Shown in pieces: positions 55,883-63,426 of a DNA stretch of 64,000 nucleotides. The notes beneath the pieces were generated by a model. The model was given only the letters and a program-made list of their open reading frames with translations. It did no database searches and had not been told where the DNA came from. The stretch lies in IMG/VR virus record IMGVR_UViG_3300021400_000027, positions 64,001-128,000 of that record. The stretch is one strand, 5' to 3'. Position 1 is the stretch's first letter; each line of letters starts with the position of its first letter. The DNA comes from a virus (Duplodnaviria; Caudoviricetes). Position numbers and translations under genes: made by a program.

Positions 55883-55956
55883 TGCCCTGTGGACAAGTGG
55901 CTTAAGTTGGGAGTCTCTAAAACTCTAAGACCTCCGTTCGAATCGGAGCAGGGCAA
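55883..55956 (+). tRNA. Amber suppressor tRNA (CTA anticodon), Gln-type acceptor
   Basis: GGAGT-CTCTAAA-ACTCT with anticodon at 55917-55919; TGCCCTG/CAGGGCA acceptor like tRNA-Gln; own promoter at 55819-55847. Confidence 0.9.
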
Positions 55957-56018: not shown

Positions 56019-56116
56019 GAAAGTTCAAATCAATTAAAAATTTGAAATTTCTTTTAAAATTTGCTATAATATTTATAGTAAATGAGAAAGAAAGCCAAAT
56101 TGAAAGGAGCAAGCCT

Positions 56117-56362: not shown

Positions 56363-56416
56363 AAATTTGAAATAAAAAATAAAATGAAGTATAATAATTA
56401 TAGAAATTAAAGAAAT

Positions 56417-56490
56417 GGGAGAGTAGCTCAGTCGGTGGTAGCAAACGGCTGTTAACCGTTAGGTCAAGGGTTCGAGTCCCTTCTCTCCCG
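56417..56490 (+). tRNA. tRNA-Asn(GTT)
   Basis: AACGG-CTGTTAA-CCGTT. Confidence 0.9.
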
Positions 56491-56500
56491 TTATTTAAAT

Positions 56501-56577: not shown

Positions 56578-56654
56578 GGGAACGTAGCTTAGTTGGTAAA
56601 AGCACTCGGCTGATAACCGAGAGACCAGCGGTTCGAGTCCGCTCGTTCCCACCA
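56578..56654 (+). tRNA. tRNA-Ile(GAT)
   Basis: CTCGG-CTGATAA-CCGAG; CCA encoded. Confidence 0.92.
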
Positions 56655-56657
56655 AAT

Positions 56658-56731
56658 GCGGAATTGGTGTAATGGTAGCATTTCTGCCTTCCAAGCAGAC
56701 AGTGGGGGTTCAAATCCCCTATTCCGCTCCA
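56658..56731 (+). tRNA. tRNA-Gly(TCC)
   Basis: TCTGC-CTTCCAA-GCAGA; TCCA end. Confidence 0.92.
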
Positions 56732-56818: not shown

Positions 56819-56820
56819 TT

Positions 56821-57033
56821 AAGACAGTTACAGCAACTTCACATAGAAAAGATATTTATTTAGTAAATTTAGTTTGTGGAGTTCTCCCGTGATGTGATAG
56901 GGAGAAAGAATTAAAGTTCGCACTCAACTATAAAGTGCAATAAAAATTTATTTTCGCCGTATAGGTGGCGGAGTTGTTTCGCCGCCGGCGGGTTTCCCTT
57001 GACCTTATAAGGAATTTAAATTTTAGCTGTCTT
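56821..57033 (+). ncRNA. CAGCAA-stem RNA copy 4 (~190-nt multi-hairpin cargo)
   Basis: AAGACAGTTA-CAGCAA...TAGCTGTCTT. Confidence 0.7.
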
Positions 57034-57036
57034 GCA

Positions 57037-57434
57037 TAGGTCGCCTAAATAAAGGCTTACCCTTTAAAGTTAAATTTATGCATGGTTTCAGGAAACCGAA
57101 AAATCCGAATCGAAGTTGAGCCGCCATTCAACTTCGTCCTGTGGCGGCAGGTTTTGAGGGTGGAGACCTTTTAAACTCCCGTTTGACGAACGTTATTAAA
57201 GTCTGACAGATGACATAATATTGCTCTAAATAGCCTCATCTAAGAATGGAATTTGAGCAGGTTAGAGTTTATCCTTAAAGCCAACCGGTTGAAAGTCCGT
57301 TGGACGGTAATAATCGTCCAAAGAATGGGAACTATTTGCTGACCTTCACGTGGTGTTTCTGAGTTTGGCTAACAGCAAAAAGTGATACTCGGCTTTATAG
57401 TTGAGAAAGTTATCCGAGTTAAACGCTTCTCAAC
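57037..57434 (+). ncRNA. Chain of compact pseudoknots and hairpins
   Basis: e.g. GAAGTTGA/TCAACTTC with loop GCCGCCAT pairing GTGGCGGC; ACTCGG/CCGAGT with GTTGAGAA/TTCTCAAC. Confidence 0.6.
57327..57379 (+). ncRNA. Minimal HDV-like (theta-type) self-cleaving ribozyme
   Basis: P1 GGGAAC/GTTTCT with G-U first pair, P2 TTTGCTG/CAGCAAA, P3 ACC/GGT, L3 TTCACGT, P1.1 TC/GA, J4/2 GCTAA. Confidence 0.78.
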
Positions 57435-58037: not shown

Positions 58038-58134
58038 TAGGGAGATTAAATTCTCCCCTACCAATTAAAAATTTGAAATTTCTTTTAAAATTTGCTATAA
58101 TATTTATAGTAAATGAGAAAGAGATAAAAAAAAT

Positions 58135-58217: not shown

Positions 58218-58347
58218 AAGATACGTACAGCAAACCACTTAGCTTAGGAATTTTAATCCCCGTGATGCAGGTTCGAGTCCTGTCTTTACAGTCTTTACTG
58301 TAAAGTAGCTTAATTGGCAGAGCAGGTAAATGCAAACAACGTATCTT
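58218..58347 (+). ncRNA. CAGCAA-stem RNA copy 5 enclosing circularly permuted tRNA-Lys(TTT)
   Basis: Order anticodon arm, T arm, acceptor hairpin CTTTACAG/CTGTAAAG, D arm; inside AAGATACGT/ACGTATCTT. Confidence 0.8.
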
Positions 58348-58354
58348 GTTAAAT

Positions 58355-58429
58355 GCCTCATTAGCTTAGATGGTCGAAAGCACCCGACTCTTAATCGGGG
58401 GAGCATGGGTTCAAATCCCATATGGGGTA
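58355..58429 (+). tRNA. tRNA-Lys(CTT)
   Basis: CCCGA-CTCTTAA-TCGGG. Confidence 0.9.
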
Positions 58430-58512: not shown

Positions 58513-58635
58513 AAGACACATCAGCAAAACAATTCTTTTGCATTGGGAGCATGAGTTAGAGGTTCGATTCCTCTATCCACGACCAAATTATACTGTGGAT
58601 TGGTGAAATGGTATCACGCATTATAAGTGTGTCTT
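58513..58635 (+). ncRNA. CAGCAA-stem RNA copy 6 enclosing circularly permuted tRNA-Pro(TGG)
   Basis: TGC-ATTGGGA-GCATG, T arm, ATCCACG-ACCA, linker, TGTGGAT, D arm; inside AAGACACA/TGTGTCTT. Confidence 0.82.
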
Positions 58636-58715: not shown

Positions 58716-58719
58716 CTAT

Positions 58720-58793
58720 GCCGGTGTAGCTCAGTTGGTAGTAGCGTATGCCTGAAGAGCATAGCGTCAGAGGTTCGATTCCTCTCGCCGGCA
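58720..58793 (+). tRNA. tRNA-Phe(GAA)
   Basis: TATGC-CTGAAGA-GCATA. Confidence 0.9.
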
Positions 58794-58799
58794 TCAGTT

Positions 58800-58925
58800 A
58801 AGATTCGTCAGCAGAAGTATTTCAAAATTTACATACACCAAATGCCAGTATGTATGGTGTAACGGTAGCACACTCACCAGTTAAGTGAGAGGTAAAGGTT
58901 CAACTCCTTTGGCAGAACGAATCTT
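58800..58925 (+). ncRNA. CAGCAG-stem RNA copy 7 enclosing permuted tRNA-Asn(GTT)-like RNA
   Basis: TACATAC-ACCA, linker, GTATGTA, D arm, CTCAC-CAGTTAA-GTGAG, T arm; inside AAGATTCGT/ACGAATCTT. Confidence 0.8.
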
Positions 58926-58930
58926 GTTTC

Positions 58931-59002
58931 CGCCCTATCGTCTAACGGTTAGGACATCGCACTTTCTATGCGAAAATCCCAGTTCGAGTCTGGGTAGGGT
59001 GA
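58931..59002 (+). tRNA. tRNA-Glu(TTC)
   Basis: TCGCA-CTTTCTA-TGCGA. Confidence 0.88.
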
Positions 59003-59049: not shown

Positions 59050-59553
59050 ATGAATACTAAAAAATTTTATCGTGGTAATGGTCAAATCGTAACCTACGAT
59101 GGAATGATGAAAGTAATTGCAGACTACATCATGGAAGATACGAAAAGTGATTATGAAATCACAGTAGGCACAGATAGCCAAAACCATGACCTAACAAAAA
59201 TGGTTGAAGTTATCGCTGTACATCGTGTTGGAAAAGGTGGTATCTTCTTCTACAGAACAGAATATGTTCGTAAAATTCGAGTTTTAAAAGAAAAAATTGT
59301 TGAAGAAACATCTCGTTCTTTAGAGAACGCAGAGGGGTTATTAGATACAGTTCAACTTTATTTACTCGAAAAAGATATTGATATTGACAAACTCAATATT
59401 CATTTTGTAATTCATTGTGATATTGGTCATGCCGGCAAGACACAAGCACTTATTAAAGAAATTGTTTCTTGGGTTCAGTCTTGTGGTTATGAATGTCAGA
59501 TTAAGCCAGATAGCTATGCTGCGTCTGGTATTGCAAACAAAATTTCTAAGTGA
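59050..59553 (+). CDS. YkuK/DUF458 RNase H-like protein
   Basis: VGTDSQ, HR.GKGG.FF, ETSRSL, IH.DIG..G.T, IKPDSYAAS..A.K. Confidence 0.88.
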   Translation: MNTKKFYRGNGQIVTYDGMMKVIADYIMEDTKSDYEITVGTDSQNHDLTKMVEVIAVHRVGKGGIFFYRTEYVRKIRVLKEKIVEETSRSLENAEGLLDTVQLYLLEKDIDIDKLNIHFVIHCDIGHAGKTQALIKEIVSWVQSCGYECQIKPDSYAASGIANKISK

Positions 59554-60802: not shown

Positions 60803-60891
60803 CTTGGTGCGCAGGTTTGATGCAATGCGACATGTTCAGAAATCCGTGTACTATAGAGTATTCCTGCACAATCTATAGCGGTATTTAATTA

Positions 60892-61036
60892 AAGACACTA
60901 CAGCAAAACATTTCTAAATGGACTGTAAATCCGTTGGGGAAGTCCCTTCGTAGGTGCAAATCCTATCCTCGCCCACCAAAATATGGGCGAGTAGCCAAGT
61001 AGACAAAGGCGACGGACCATATATTAAAAGTGTCTT
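60892..61036 (+). ncRNA. CAGCAA-stem RNA copy 9 enclosing circularly permuted tRNA-Tyr(GTA)
   Basis: ATGGA-CTGTAAA-TCCGT, V arm, T arm, CTCGCCC-ACCA, linker, GGGCGAG, D arm, ACGGAC; inside AAGACACT/AGTGTCTT. Confidence 0.82.
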
Positions 61037-61041
61037 GAAAT

Positions 61042-61122
61042 GTGGAGATGCCAGAGTGGTTGATTGGGACGGACTGCAACTCCGTTGCGTAAGCCTCGTC
61101 GGTTCGAATCCGACTCTCCACT
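61042..61122 (+). tRNA. tRNA-Cys(GCA) with enlarged variable arm
   Basis: ACGGA-CTGCAAC-TCCGT; U73. Confidence 0.85.
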
Positions 61123-61500: not shown

Positions 61501-61607
61501 GAAGTTAAAATAATTTGAGTTTTTAAAAATTTTTTGCTATAATATTTATAGTGAAAAGGAAAAAGTCCGAATTAACTTTAACTTACAATGAAAAGGAGAA
61601 ATGTGTA

Positions 61608-63077
61608 ATGAGTTTTGTAAATCAGTTCAAAAGAATGTCCGATATGACCACCACTGAAAATGGAGGTCTGGCTTATAAGTCTACCGGCTCTGACCTTTTA
61701 TCTCTGTTCGCTAATATTGGCGGTATGAGAGATAGAAATGATAGCGATATTATTTCTGCTTGGAAACTCGCAAGAAAGGAAGATAAGCTGTTAGCAGATA
61801 ACCTTATTCTCTATTCTCGTGATATTCGTAATGCCGGACTTGGTGAGCGTAGAATTGGCAGACTCTTATTAAAAGAGCTTGCTATGGTTGACCCTCGTAA
61901 GGTAGAGCGTAATCTCCAGAAGATTGTCGATGCCGGCAGATGGGACGACTTGTTCGTATTTGAGGGAACTCCTGCATGGGATGAAACCGTTCGCTTTATC
62001 CAGAATCAGTTCCGTACTGATGTCAATGGAATGAAGAAGAACGAACCTATTTCTCTGCTTGCAAAGTGGCTTCCTTCTATTAACGCTTCTTCTGAAAAGA
62101 CTAAGCGTCTGGCTCGTACTTTCTGCACCTTGTTCAGCTTAACTCCTCGTACTTATCGTAAGAGCCTCTCCGCTATGCGTAAGTACATTGATGTAGTTGA
62201 ACGTAAGATGTCAGCTGGTCAGTGGAATGAAATTAACTTTGAAACTGTTCCTTCTGTTGCAATGTCTCGTTATATTGCAACCTACAATAAGCGTTGTCAG
62301 GAACGCTTTGCCGAATACAAGGCTTCCCTTGAAAAGGGCGAAGCTAAGGTTAATGCGGCAACTCTCTTCCCTTATGACATTGCTTTAAAGTTCATAGGCA
62401 ATTGTAATGGCTATGGTTGTAGATATACTCATCTGGATGCAGTTGATGAAGCACAGTGGAAGGCTCTGCCTAACTATGTTTCTGACGAGTTCGATGTAGT
62501 TGTAATGGCAGACGTATCCGGCTCTATGTACTCTTCTGATAGTCGTCCTATGGCAACTTCTATTGGTCTGGCAACTTACTTTGCTCAACGCAACAAAGGT
62601 GCATATCACAATATGTATTTAAGTTTCACTGACCGTCCTCATTTCATTACCCTGCGTGACGAGATGTCGCTGGAAGATTGCTTAAAATACGTGTTAAAGG
62701 AGGGTGTTGGCTACAATACTGACCTTGACCTTGCTTTTGAAGCTATCTATAAAGTGGCAAGCACTGCCGGAGAAGCACCTAAAGCTCTTGTCATTATTAG
62801 TGATATGGAGATTGATTCTTTCTGCGGAGAGAATTATGAATCCATTGCTCAAAAATGGCAGAGAATTTACGCTAAAGCTGGATTAACTGCTCCTAAGTTA
62901 ATTTGGTGGAATGTAGATTCCAGAGAGGGTAGAGTTCTCGCTCGTCAGGACGAGAATGTAGGATTTGTATCAGGTTATGGTGTCGGTCCGTTCAAGAATC
63001 TTCAATCTCTGATTGAAAAAGACGCTTATACCGCAATGGTAGAAATCCTCTCTCAGGACGCTTTCACTTGGAATTAA
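61608..63077 (+). CDS. DUF2828 / TROVE(Ro60)-like protein with C-terminal vWA domain
   Basis: TENG..AY.ST, RDIR..GLGER, GRWDDL, SLLAKWLPS, MIDAS DVSGSM, ISDME.D, WNV; ATG 61608 behind AAGGAG. Confidence 0.88.
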   Translation: MSFVNQFKRMSDMTTTENGGLAYKSTGSDLLSLFANIGGMRDRNDSDIISAWKLARKEDKLLADNLILYSRDIRNAGLGERRIGRLLLKELAMVDPRKVERNLQKIVDAGRWDDLFVFEGTPAWDETVRFIQNQFRTDVNGMKKNEPISLLAKWLPSINASSEKTKRLARTFCTLFSLTPRTYRKSLSAMRKYIDVVERKMSAGQWNEINFETVPSVAMSRYIATYNKRCQERFAEYKASLEKGEAKVNAATLFPYDIALKFIGNCNGYGCRYTHLDAVDEAQWKALPNYVSDEFDVVVMADVSGSMYSSDSRPMATSIGLATYFAQRNKGAYHNMYLSFTDRPHFITLRDEMSLEDCLKYVLKEGVGYNTDLDLAFEAIYKVASTAGEAPKALVIISDMEIDSFCGENYESIAQKWQRIYAKAGLTAPKLIWWNVDSREGRVLARQDENVGFVSGYGVGPFKNLQSLIEKDAYTAMVEILSQDAFTWN

Positions 63078-63099
63078 GGCGGTTACGCCGCCTTGATTT

Positions 63100-63313
63100 T
63101 AGGCTCTATACAGCAAAATCAATAGAAATATACATCAAATTGATTTTAGTTAAATAATTGGCATTTACCTGTAGTTGTCAAAACCTTGTAACAGGTTAAG
63201 TTACCGCACACTTCTTTTGTGTAAATGAAGTCCCTCCCGTTCCAGTTTGGGATTGTATAACTGGTGATAGTGGAATAAATTTTCTACCGAAGTCTGAGAA
63301 CAGCAAGAGCCTA
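63100..63313 (+). ncRNA. CAGCAA-stem RNA copy 12 (~190-nt cargo with three small pseudoknots)
   Basis: TAGGCTCT-ATA-CAGCAA...AGAGCCTA. Confidence 0.68.
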
Positions 63314-63319
63314 GTCTTA

Positions 63320-63366
63320 ACGATTCTTCAGCAGAATTGTTTCAAGAATTGAAAAAAAAGAATCGT
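63320..63366 (+). ncRNA. CAGCAG-stem RNA copy 13 (short hairpin cargo)
   Basis: ACGATTCTT-CAGCAG...AAGAATCGT; terminator-like hairpin follows at 63369-63404. Confidence 0.65.
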
Positions 63367-63426
63367 GAGGGAGTTGAACAATTAAAAAAGTTCAATTCCC
63401 TTTTGTAATTTTTAAGGGGTGATACT

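What the first reader, a model, noticed from the sequence alone, without database searches (positions are those of the whole stretch)
58800..58925. Permuted tRNA-Asn-like cargo with a different break point (between T arm and acceptor)
Seen: the 3' acceptor strand TACATAC-ACCA comes first, then a linker, GTATGTA, D arm, full anticodon arm (loop CAGTTAA, A instead of U33) and T arm. The handle is attached at the T-arm/acceptor junction. Inference: the handle has captured tRNAs independently at different positions. A break anywhere is what cutting a circular or tandem tRNA template would give, which hints at a cargo-acquisition mechanism.
Basis: partly seen in the sequence, partly recalled or inferred. 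Interest (0 to 1): 0.8.

Follow-up and report, generated by a model that had tools for sequence, protein, structure and literature searches.

The report
Phage Y-RNA-like tRNA mimic, new topology
A small RNA cut out of a phage tRNA array folds into a complete tRNA shape with a sealed acceptor end and a conserved terminal stem that most likely docks it onto a phage Ro60-like protein, so it is an unusually wired relative of bacterial Y RNAs rather than a working tRNA.

Summary
At 58830-58910 the 3' acceptor strand plus ACCA comes first. A 7-nt spacer, the 5' acceptor strand and D, anticodon and T arms follow. A 9-bp terminal helix (58800-58808 with 58917-58925) encloses all of it.

- **Conservation.** Four distinct homologues exist in other uncultured phages. 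Across the five sequences 19 of 30 base pairs show compensatory changes, including 5 of 7 in the acceptor hairpin.
- **Not a tRNA.** The anticodon differs among homologues (GUU, GUU, GUA, GCU, none). U33 and the CCA are not conserved.
- **Family.** It is one of about 13 'stem + (A)CAGCAA' RNAs beside a DUF2828/vWA gene whose model matches Ro60. I found the same handle beside Ro-like genes in four cultured phages, of B. subtilis, E. coli, Listeria and Mycobacterium.
- **Reading.** It is a Y-RNA-like tRNA mimic. Its handle leaves at the T-stem/acceptor junction, not at the anticodon stem as in the YrlA-like order.
- **Expression.** RNA contigs bound it at 58794-58930, the predicted RNase Z and RNase P sites. 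One contig joins 58930 back to 58794, so it may be circular.

The same first-stage scan had already noted this family and the Ro60-like gene on this window. The proposed cargo-capture mechanism stays untested.

The parts
58719..58793 (+). tRNA-Phe(GAA) with no encoded CCA. Its discriminator A58793 sets the expected RNase Z cut, which would create the 5' end of the element.
   Evidence: ARAGORN, Rfam tRNA 60.4 bits and the sequence.
58794..58799 (+). 5' tail of the processed RNA.
   Evidence: RNA contigs begin at 58794 (X3 record 20). The joint 58930->58794 was seen in X1.
58800..58808 (+). Handle, 5' strand (AAGATTCGT).
   Evidence: Pairs with 58917-58925. 5 of its 9 pairs change on both sides among homologues.
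58809..58816 (+). Family motif CAGCAGAA, unpaired. The family consensus is (A)CAGCAA.
   Evidence: The motif is conserved in 127 unique handle RNAs and in four cultured phages.
58817..58829 (+). A/U-rich linker containing TTTCAAAATT.
   Evidence: Similar A/U-rich runs are present in L001, L045 and L172.
58830..58836 (+). 3' acceptor strand TACATAC.
   Evidence: Forms a perfect 7-bp helix with 58848-58854. 5 of 7 pairs are compensatory among homologues.
58837..58847 (+). Acceptor hairpin loop: ACCA plus spacer AATGCCA.
   Evidence: Sequence. L001 and L045 keep GCCA, while L172 has the loop TTCCT without CCA.
58848..58856 (+). 5' acceptor strand GTATGTA plus U8 and G9.
58857..58871 (+). D arm (GTGT / AACGGTA / GCAC) with A14, G18 and G19.
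   Evidence: Rfam tRNA alignment. These columns are invariant among the four sequences aligned.
58873..58889 (+). Anticodon-like arm with loop CAGTTAA, so A33 and GUU.
   Evidence: All 5 stem pairs covary, and the loop differs among homologues.
58894..58910 (+). T arm with loop TTCAACT.
58911..58916 (+). Linker between the T stem and the handle. This is the point where the chain leaves the tRNA fold, position 65/66.
58917..58925 (+). Handle, 3' strand (ACGAATCTT).
58926..58930 (+). Conserved G plus 3' tail, ending at the RNase P site of tRNA-Glu.
   Evidence: G follows the handle in 94% of family members. RNA contigs end at 58930.
58931..59002 (+). tRNA-Glu(UUC). Its 5' maturation would create the 3' end of the element.
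61608..63077 (+). Ro60-like protein gene (DUF2828 + vWA). This is the presumed partner of the handle.
   Evidence: Pfam, an AF2 model with pLDDT 87 and Foldseek, whose top 13 hits are all Ro60/TROVE.
58218..58347 (+). Paralogous handle RNA with the YrlA-like order (T arm, acceptor hairpin, D arm).
   Evidence: Rfam YrlA full-length match, 31.6 bits, below the gathering score. Class A.
58513..58635 (+). Paralogous handle RNA with the YrlA-like order.
60892..61036 (+). Paralogous handle RNA with a Tyr-like permuted tRNA.

Best explanation
The element is a small non-coding RNA, about 58794-58930. It is released from the phage's tRNA-array transcript by the cuts that mature the flanking tRNA-Phe (RNase Z side) and tRNA-Glu (RNase P side).

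It has two modules.
- **Handle.** A 9-bp terminal helix followed by unpaired CAGCAGAA. This is shared by about 13 RNAs of this genome and by RNAs next to Ro-like genes in many phages. I infer that it docks the RNA onto the phage's Ro60-like DUF2828/vWA protein, as the terminal stem of a Y RNA docks onto Ro60.
- **tRNA-shaped module.** It keeps the D arm, T arm, an anticodon-like arm and a 7-bp acceptor helix sealed by a loop, which is a leftover ACCA plus spacer. I infer that it presents a tRNA elbow and an anticodon-like loop to a tRNA-binding partner, acting as tether or decoy. It is not there to decode.

What is special here is the wiring. The chain enters and leaves the tRNA fold between the T stem and the 3' acceptor strand (position 65/66). 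In YrlA it does so at the anticodon stem.

Shown: the fold and its conservation, the genomic link to the Ro-like gene, and presence in RNA libraries with ends at the tRNA processing sites. Inferred: protein binding and the decoy or tether role.
For: **Structure.** Across five homologues (four independent of the window) 96.6% of cells pair, against 34-67% when partners are slid. 19 of 30 pairs have changes on both sides. All five helices covary (alignment).

**tRNA character.** Rfam tRNA scores 36.6 bits over model positions 8-63. U8, A14, G18, G19, T54-T55-C56 and A58 are invariant in the four sequences aligned.

**Family link.**
- The strict handle motif occurs 134 times on the gene strand and 2 times on the other strand in 2.5 Mb of DUF2828 loci. 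It occurs 0 times in 0.31 Mb of control loci.
- A handle-only DNA pattern found 12 IMG/VR contigs, and all 12 encode DUF2828.
- The same stem + (A)CAGCAA + trailing G RNAs lie beside Ro-like genes in B. subtilis phage FADO, E. coli phage garuso, Listeria phage LP-048 and mycobacteriophage Faith1.

**Protein.** The AF2 model has pLDDT 87. Its top 13 PDB matches are all Ro60/TROVE, at probability 1.0 and TM 0.45-0.59 over about 520-560 columns. The MIDAS residues D302, S304 and S306 are invariant.

**Paralogues.** A paralogue matches Rfam YrlA over the full model, below threshold.

**Expression.** RNA-library contigs from two studies cover or end at 58794 and 58930.

**Precedent.** Y RNAs with tRNA-like modules of differing topology are known, YrlA versus Yrn1 (PMC4201824).
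Against: - No binding data exist. The handle-protein link rests on co-occurrence in related large phages, so shared ancestry could explain part of it.
- The handle lacks the GNCGAAN0-1G motif of canonical YrlA (PMC4201824). Rfam's YrlA model does not hit this element.
- Only five sequences have this topology. The acceptor helix is weak in one of them, L048.
- The structural alignment was fitted to the model, which favours pairing.
- The back-joined RNA contig hints at a further step, circularisation, that a plain Y-RNA model does not predict.
Confidence: 0.6

Rival explanations
1. The handle is mainly a splint. After RNase Z and RNase P excision the RNA has a 5' phosphate and a 3' hydroxyl held side by side by the helix. 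A phage ATP-dependent RNA ligase then seals it into a circular tRNA-shaped RNA. In a circle there is no permutation, and the 'break point' is only where an extra arm is inserted. The circle could act as a nuclease-resistant decoy, or be reopened at the acceptor loop by RNase P.
For: - One RNA contig (X1, depth 6, 65 nt on the shorter side) joins 58930 directly to 58794, exactly the predicted RNase P and RNase Z sites.
- A like joint, 63318->63096, encloses another handle RNA. A third, 61122+C->60805, was also seen (all).
- The genome encodes two ATP-dependent RNA ligase homologues, at G000 129458-130396 and 131132-132265, 1.5-4.3 kb beyond the window's end.
- No DNA with the junction exists in IMG/VR.
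- An archaeal ATP-dependent RNA ligase (Rnl) circularises C/D box sRNAs (PMC9014305, abstract).
- The acceptor hairpin of M. smegmatis YrlA is cut by RNase P.
Against: - The joints come from contigs of a single run.
- End-to-end template switching by reverse transcriptase, or ligase steps in library preparation, would give the same junction. The extra C in the third joint fits that.
- A tandem duplication in a strain is not excluded, because no DNA run could be laid.
- The ligases lie within 10 kb of only a minority of DUF2828 loci.
Confidence: 0.2
2. It is a true permuted tRNA-Asn gene, matured through a circular intermediate into a working tRNA as in the red alga Cyanidioschyzon merolae.
For: - The 3' half with ACCA lies upstream of the 5' part, joined by a short linker.
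- There is a possible circular junction.
- ARAGORN calls the rearranged sequence tRNA-Asn.
Against: - The anticodon is not conserved among homologues: GUU, GUU, GUA, GCU, and a 5-nt AAAAA loop in L045.
- A33 replaces the universal U33.
- L172 has no CCA in a 5-nt loop.
- In the wider family the acceptor loops include GAAA and TTCG tetraloops, which seal rather than open the stem.
- The observed junction keeps the roughly 56-nt handle inside the molecule.
- A normal tRNA-Asn(GTT) already exists at 56416-56491.
- There is no bulge-helix-bulge motif.
Confidence: 0.04
3. A dedicated mechanism repeatedly loads pieces of tRNA, cut from circular or tandem templates at arbitrary points, into a constant handle.
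For: - The handle sits at several positions in different RNAs. One is inside or after the anticodon arm, as read by the first-stage notes and by eye. Another is 65/66, in this element. A third is around whole tRNAs.
- About a third of the acceptor loops keep NCCA plus a spacer like an inter-tRNA gap.
- The cargo is colinear with a tRNA-tRNA junction.
Against: - Each topology forms conserved lineages. The 65/66 class has five related members only.
- No donor tRNA is recognisable.
- I did not look for a reverse transcriptase or recombinase tied to the array.
- Ordinary duplication and deletion inside a tRNA array would be enough.
Confidence: 0.1
4. It is a decaying by-product of rearrangements in the tRNA array and has no function.
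For: L048 has a weakened acceptor helix, and L045 has lost the anticodon loop.
Against: Compensatory changes occur in all five helices among phages whose Ro-like proteins are only 42-60% identical. The tertiary-contact nucleotides are conserved. The element is present in RNA libraries as a discrete species.
Confidence: 0.04

Closest known systems
YrlA, the bacterial and mycobacteriophage Y RNA-like RNA (Rfam RF02553; Chen et al. 2014, PMC4201824)
   Same: - A small RNA encoded beside a Ro60-type gene.
- A terminal stem plus a purine-rich 5'-strand motif.
- A tRNA-like module with T arm, D arm and an acceptor helix closed by a loop.
- Often co-transcribed with tRNAs.
   Different: - Here the chain leaves the tRNA fold at the T-stem/acceptor junction. 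In YrlA the Ro60-binding stem continues from the anticodon stem.
- A full anticodon-like arm is kept.
- The motif is (A)CAGCAA, not GNCGAAN0-1G.
- The partner protein scores as Pfam DUF2828, not TROVE.
- There are about 13 such RNAs per genome.
- Rfam's model does not detect it.
Deinococcus radiodurans Yrn1
   Same: It is a Y RNA whose tRNA-like part is wired differently from YrlA. The stem-loop between its T and D arms sits in the anticodon position (PMC4201824). Topology variation within Y RNAs therefore has precedent.
   Different: Yrn1 lacks a clear D arm and has a 6-nt 'anticodon' loop. It has no closed acceptor hairpin with CCA. Its Ro-binding helix resembles the metazoan one.
Circularly permuted tRNA genes of Cyanidioschyzon merolae, and permuted tmRNA genes
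   Same: The 3' acceptor strand with CCA is encoded upstream of the 5' part. There is a short linker at the acceptor end. Break points vary between genes.
   Different: Those mature into working tRNAs through bulge-helix-bulge cleavage and ligation. Here the anticodon, U33 and CCA are not conserved, and the flanking helix is a plain stem shared with non-tRNA cargos.
Phage Ro60 with Yrl RNAs (Thermus phage phiLo, PMC12135203), and the proposed Y RNAs of Listeria phage CKA15 (PMC12282133) and E. coli phage Bas63 gp130 (PMC11482910)
   Same: A phage-encoded Ro60-like protein sits next to candidate partner RNAs and tRNA arrays.
   Different: The phiLo Yrls carry the CGAA motif. For CKA15 and Bas63 the partner RNAs were only conjectured. 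The (A)CAGCAA handle RNAs found here in LP-048 and garuso, phages I take to be their relatives, are candidates for them.

Membership tests
Functional tRNA | A contiguous cloverleaf with open 5' and 3' acceptor ends. | tested here: not met
   ARAGORN makes no call in place. Rfam tRNA matches model positions 8-63 only. The acceptor strands are in reversed order and joined by a loop.
Functional tRNA | U33 and an anticodon conserved among orthologues. | tested here: not met
   The loops are CAGTTAA, TTGTTAA, TTGTAAA, TAGCTAA and a CCCC/AAAAA/GGGG hairpin.
Functional tRNA | The nucleotides that build the elbow: U8, A14, G18, G19, T54, T55, C56 and A58. | tested here: met
   These columns are invariant in the four sequences, and they align.
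YrlA (Rfam RF02553) | Encoded next to a Ro60 orthologue. | tested here: met
   The Ro60-like gene at 61608-63077 lies 2.7 kb downstream on the same strand. Twelve of 12 contigs found by a handle-only pattern encode DUF2828.
YrlA (Rfam RF02553) | T arm, closed acceptor helix and D arm in that order, with the Ro60-binding stem continuing from the anticodon stem. | tested here: not met
   The order here is acceptor hairpin, D arm, anticodon arm, T arm, and the handle leaves after the T stem. Paralogues at 58218 and 58513 do have the YrlA order.
YrlA (Rfam RF02553) | The GNCGAAN0-1G motif near the 5' end. | tested here: not met
   CAGCAGAA is found here and (A)CAGCAA across the family. The canonical motif is taken from PMC4201824.
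YrlA (Rfam RF02553) | A score at or above Rfam's gathering threshold of 69 bits. | tested here: not met
   There is no YrlA match on 58796-58930 at E up to 10. The paralogue at 58239-58355 scores 31.6 bits.
Ro60 / TROVE proteins (the partner gene) | A HEAT-repeat ring plus a vWA domain with a MIDAS motif. | tested here: met
   Foldseek's top 13 hits are all Ro60/TROVE over nearly the full length. DxSxS (D302, S304, S306) is invariant. Pfam assigns DUF2828 + DUF7788, and TROVE is not among the matches.
Ro60 / TROVE proteins (the partner gene) | Binds the terminal stem of its partner RNA. | not testable with these tools
   Only co-occurrence and strand bias are available.
Permuted tRNA genes (C. 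merolae type) | The 3' part lies upstream of the 5' part, with a linker at the acceptor end. | tested here: met
Permuted tRNA genes (C. merolae type) | A bulge-helix-bulge motif at the termini, and maturation to a working tRNA. | tested here: not met
   The termini form a plain 9-bp helix. The decoding features are not conserved. The maturation products themselves were not observable.
Circular RNA | A covalent 3'-to-5' junction in RNA that is absent from DNA. | tested here: inconclusive
   The joint 58930->58794 appears in one RNA-library contig. The junction is absent from IMG/VR DNA. No DNA run of the same sample could be laid, and artefacts are not excluded.

The most novel reading that the evidence does not exclude
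The handle RNAs of Ro-like-encoding phages are cut out by RNase Z and RNase P. Phage RNA ligases then seal them covalently into circular tRNA-shaped RNAs, with the conserved stem acting both as ligation splint and as docking site for the Ro-like protein. The 'permuted' genes would then simply be circles opened at different places. Phages would make a set of nuclease-resistant circular tRNA mimics, possibly decoys for anticodon nucleases or other defences.
Probability: 0.2. Interest if true: 0.85.

Novelty: new variant of a known kind. Interest (0 to 1): 0.6.

Why it matters
Two recent papers each suggested that a phage Ro60-like protein next to a tRNA array has Y-RNA partners, but neither defined them. 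One reports three very abundant RNAs upstream of an Rsr-like gene in Listeria phage CKA15 (PMC12282133). The other shows that Bas63 gp130 counters the Ppl defence system (PMC11482910).

The stem + (A)CAGCAA handle gives a concrete, searchable signature for those partners. I saw it beside the Ro-like gene in the four cultured phages I checked. Homologues of the protein occur in 706 cultured phage records.

This element adds that the tRNA-shaped module can be wired to the handle at more than one point while keeping a full anticodon-like arm. That constrains how the protein and the tRNA mimic sit relative to each other. It also argues that the tRNA shape and the loop matter, not a fixed architecture.

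The possible circularisation, if real, would add a new class of phage RNA. It would also link the Ro-like proteins to the RNA ligases that these phages carry.

Tried and rejected
- **Exact 16-mer handle search.** Searching IMG/VR with an exact 16-mer of the commonest handle gave 36 hits. None had a partner strand, so all were chance.
- **Core pattern search.** A degenerate pattern of the D/anticodon core found only the contig already known.
- **Near relatives among phage records.** blastn of the region against cultured phages found only tRNA-level matches.
- **MAFFT alignment of homologues.** It misaligned the acceptor hairpin. I therefore built a covariance model from the window sequence with a hand-written structure and re-aligned with it.
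- **More members of this topology.** The model found none in about 2.6 Mb of related loci beyond five sequences.
- **Donor tRNA.** blastn-short of the core against all fetched loci gave only short D-arm or T-arm matches to assorted tRNAs.
- **ARAGORN on rearranged sequences.** It calls tRNAs readily even with 5 of 7 acceptor pairs, so it is weak evidence.
- **PDB by sequence.** Searching with the DUF2828 protein found nothing. Only the fold search showed the Ro60 likeness.
- **Ligases near Ro-like genes.** RNA ligase and RNase H-like genes lie within 10 kb of only a minority of DUF2828 loci, so no firm neighbourhood link exists.
- **RtcB.** It is absent from this genome.
- **Junction in DNA.** The junction 25-mer is absent from IMG/VR DNA.
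- **Parts without RNA-contig cover** were not interpreted.

Full report
**What is there.** The window is part of a complete 179,787-bp phage genome with direct terminal repeats. Positions 55.1-63.4 kb hold 24 tRNA genes, interspersed with non-coding elements. The finding lies between tRNA-Phe (58719-58793) and tRNA-Glu (58931-59002).

- a 9-bp terminal helix, 58800-58808 with 58917-58925;
- the motif CAGCAGAA;
- an A/U-rich linker;
- TACATAC, ACCA and a 7-nt spacer;
- GTATGTA, then U8 and G9;
- a D arm;
- an anticodon-like arm with loop CAGTTAA;
- a 4-nt variable region;
- a T arm with loop TTCAACT;
- a 6-nt linker back to the helix.

Rfam's tRNA model matches only positions 8-63 of 71, at 36.6 bits. 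That is what a tRNA lacking a contiguous acceptor stem should give. A perfect complement of the 5' acceptor strand in the upstream 39 nt arises in 0.9% of shuffles, and in 0.014% when also followed by NCCA.

**Is the fold real?** I built a covariance model from the window sequence with this structure. I searched about 2.6 Mb of loci fetched through the neighbouring protein. Besides the window it found four independent homologues:
- L048:6975-7092;
- L172:9377-9492;
- L001:5525-5667, which is the same sequence as L123;
- L045:5974-6114.

On their structural alignment 96.6% of cells pair, against 34-67% with slid partners. 19 of 30 pairs change on both sides, and every helix covaries. The acceptor hairpin changes from TACATAC/GTATGTA to TAACGCC/GGCGTTA (L001, L045) and TATCTC/GAGATA (L172).

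There are caveats. The alignment is fitted to the model. There are only five sequences. In L048 the acceptor helix is reduced to a few A-U pairs.

**It is not a decoding tRNA.** The anticodon-like loop reads GUU in the window and in L001, GUA in L048 and GCU in L172. In L045 a CCCC/AAAAA/GGGG hairpin replaces it. Position 33 is A in two homologues. The CCA is absent in L172, whose loop is TTCCT.

In the wider family, acceptor loops range from NCCA plus spacer down to GAAA and TTCG tetraloops. Those seal the helix. A normal tRNA-Asn is present at 56416-56491. The elbow nucleotides are conserved in the four sequences aligned. Selection therefore appears to act on the tRNA shape and on the presence of a loop, not on a codon.

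**What family it belongs to.** The terminal helix plus (A)CAGCAA recurs about 13 times in the window. The first-stage scan had already noted this on this window.

The ORF at 61608-63077 hits Pfam DUF2828 + DUF7788. Its AlphaFold model (pLDDT 87) matches Ro60/TROVE structures in the 13 best Foldseek hits, among them the Thermus phage phiLo Ro60 and the Deinococcus Rsr. The MIDAS DxSxS motif is invariant.

The link between handle and protein rests on three counts:
- A strict handle motif occurs 134 times on the gene's strand and twice on the other strand in 2.5 Mb of DUF2828 loci. It never occurs in 0.31 Mb of unrelated viral loci. G follows the 3' strand in 94% of cases.
- A DNA pattern made of the handle alone retrieved 12 IMG/VR contigs, and all of them encode DUF2828.
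- The protein family occurs in 706 cultured phage records, including mycobacteriophage genes annotated 'Ro-like RNA binding protein'.

The same RNAs (stem, (A)CAGCAA, stem, G) lie next to the gene in four cultured phages. They are B. subtilis phage FADO, E. coli Felixounavirus garuso, Listeria phage LP-048 (three in tandem just upstream of the gene) and mycobacteriophage Faith1.

The literature had proposed, without defining them, that such phages have Y RNAs. The examples are three very abundant RNAs upstream of an Rsr-like gene in Listeria phage CKA15 (PMC12282133) and Bas63 gp130, a Ro60-like protein that counters Ppl (PMC11482910).

Canonical YrlA RNAs carry GNCGAAN0-1G and have the order T arm, acceptor hairpin, D arm (PMC4201824). 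Rfam's YrlA model hits a paralogue at 58239-58355 only weakly (31.6 bits). It does not hit the finding or the cultured-phage RNAs at E up to 0.05.

**What is different about this element.** Among unique handle RNAs with a tRNA-like cargo, 25 have the YrlA-like order. Of the RNAs scored with the finding's order, only the window's and L001's proved genuine, and the others were misassignments. L045, L048 and L172 join this lineage through the model searches.

Other related RNAs have the handle around a whole, unpermuted tRNA, for example L001:7167-7281, which contains an ARAGORN tRNA-Leu. By eye, a FADO RNA is opened after the anticodon loop. The handle can therefore be attached at several points of a tRNA fold, and this is the 65/66 version. 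Y RNAs with differently wired tRNA-like parts have a precedent in YrlA versus Yrn1. I therefore class it as a new variant of a known kind.

**Expression and ends.** Contigs from animal-gut RNA libraries of several studies cover the array very unevenly. Their ends fall at tRNA boundaries.
- One contig (X3) covers exactly 58794-58930 without a mismatch.
- 58794 is the first base after the discriminator of tRNA-Phe, which has no encoded CCA, so an RNase Z cut is expected there.
- 58930 is the last base before tRNA-Glu, which is the RNase P site.
- In the family, 41 of 133 unique handle RNAs have a tRNA starting 4-10 nt after the handle, and 36 have a tRNA ending 1-13 nt before it.

The RNA therefore seems to be released by tRNA maturation. 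These are contigs from RNA libraries. They show presence and boundaries, not abundance, and DNA carry-over cannot be excluded formally.

**An unexplained lead.** One contig (X1) joins 58930 directly to 58794. A second such joint (63318->63096) encloses the long handle RNA at 63099-63314. A third joins 61122 plus one C to 60805.

RNase Z and RNase P leave a 5' phosphate and a 3' hydroxyl on the spacer RNA (established enzymology). The handle would hold these ends together. The phage encodes two ATP-dependent RNA ligase homologues, 1.5-4.3 kb beyond the window's end. In-vivo circularisation is therefore mechanistically plausible.

Other explanations remain open. All the joints come from one run. 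End-to-end template switching or a ligase step in library preparation could produce them. A DNA tandem duplication in a strain is not excluded either. The junction is absent from IMG/VR, but I could not lay a DNA run. I rate it at about 0.2.

A tandem-tRNA origin is reasonable. The cargo is colinear with 'end of tRNA, spacer, next tRNA'. The model also aligns positions 31-111 to the natural tRNA-Ile/tRNA-Gly junction at 56645-56720. Chen et al. noted that tRNA dimers mimic YrlA in searches.

An active capture mechanism has no support. The class is one small lineage. No donor tRNA is recognisable. Array duplication and deletion would suffice.

**Verdict.** The element is best read as a Y-RNA-like tRNA mimic with a new topology, partnered with a divergent phage Ro60. 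The function (tether or decoy) is inferred, and circularisation is an open lead.

Noticed in passing
window 56820-57434: A long-cargo handle RNA (56820-57034) is followed by about 400 nt without an ORF. This stretch has by far the highest depth in RNA-library contigs (up to 82 in X1), with contigs from four studies. No Rfam family matches it.
   Followed up: partly
window 63096-63369 and 60805-61122: Two further back-joined RNA contigs were seen in run X1. One joins 63318->63096 around the handle RNA at 63099-63314. The other joins 61122 plus an extra C to 60805, spanning a tRNA-His trailer, the Tyr-like handle RNA and tRNA-Cys.
   Followed up: no
window 55883-55956; also L001:3594-3687, L002:3936-4013 and 8837-8913, L045:4604-4759: tRNAs with anticodon CUA, which ARAGORN labels 'Pyl', occur in this phage and its relatives. 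These are amber-suppressor-type tRNAs and hint at TAG recoding.
   Followed up: no
L001:8487-8728: One handle encloses two interleaved tRNA-like units. A second tRNA-like sequence sits inside the acceptor loop of a permuted one.
   Followed up: partly
L217:5460-6011 (Listeria phage LP-048): A ROOL-like RNA (Rfam 90 bits, just under the gathering score of 99.1) lies about 650 nt upstream of the three tandem handle RNAs and the DUF2828 gene. RtcB-like and other RNA ligase genes follow downstream.
   Followed up: no
window 56033-56100, 58060-58125, 61510-61570: A near-identical A/T-rich segment containing TTGCTATAAT is repeated three times inside the array. These look like internal promoters.
   Followed up: no
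window 59050-59553: A Pfam RNaseH_like (PF04308, DUF458) gene sits directly after tRNA-Glu. Within 10 kb of DUF2828 genes it was found in 9 loci, and all 9 carry handle RNAs.
   Followed up: partly
L216:9422-9547 (E. coli phage garuso): A 126-nt handle RNA with T arm, closed acceptor helix and D arm (the YrlA-like order) lies about 1 kb downstream of the gene annotated 'vWFA protein'. It is a candidate for the Y RNA conjectured for Bas63 gp130.
   Followed up: partly
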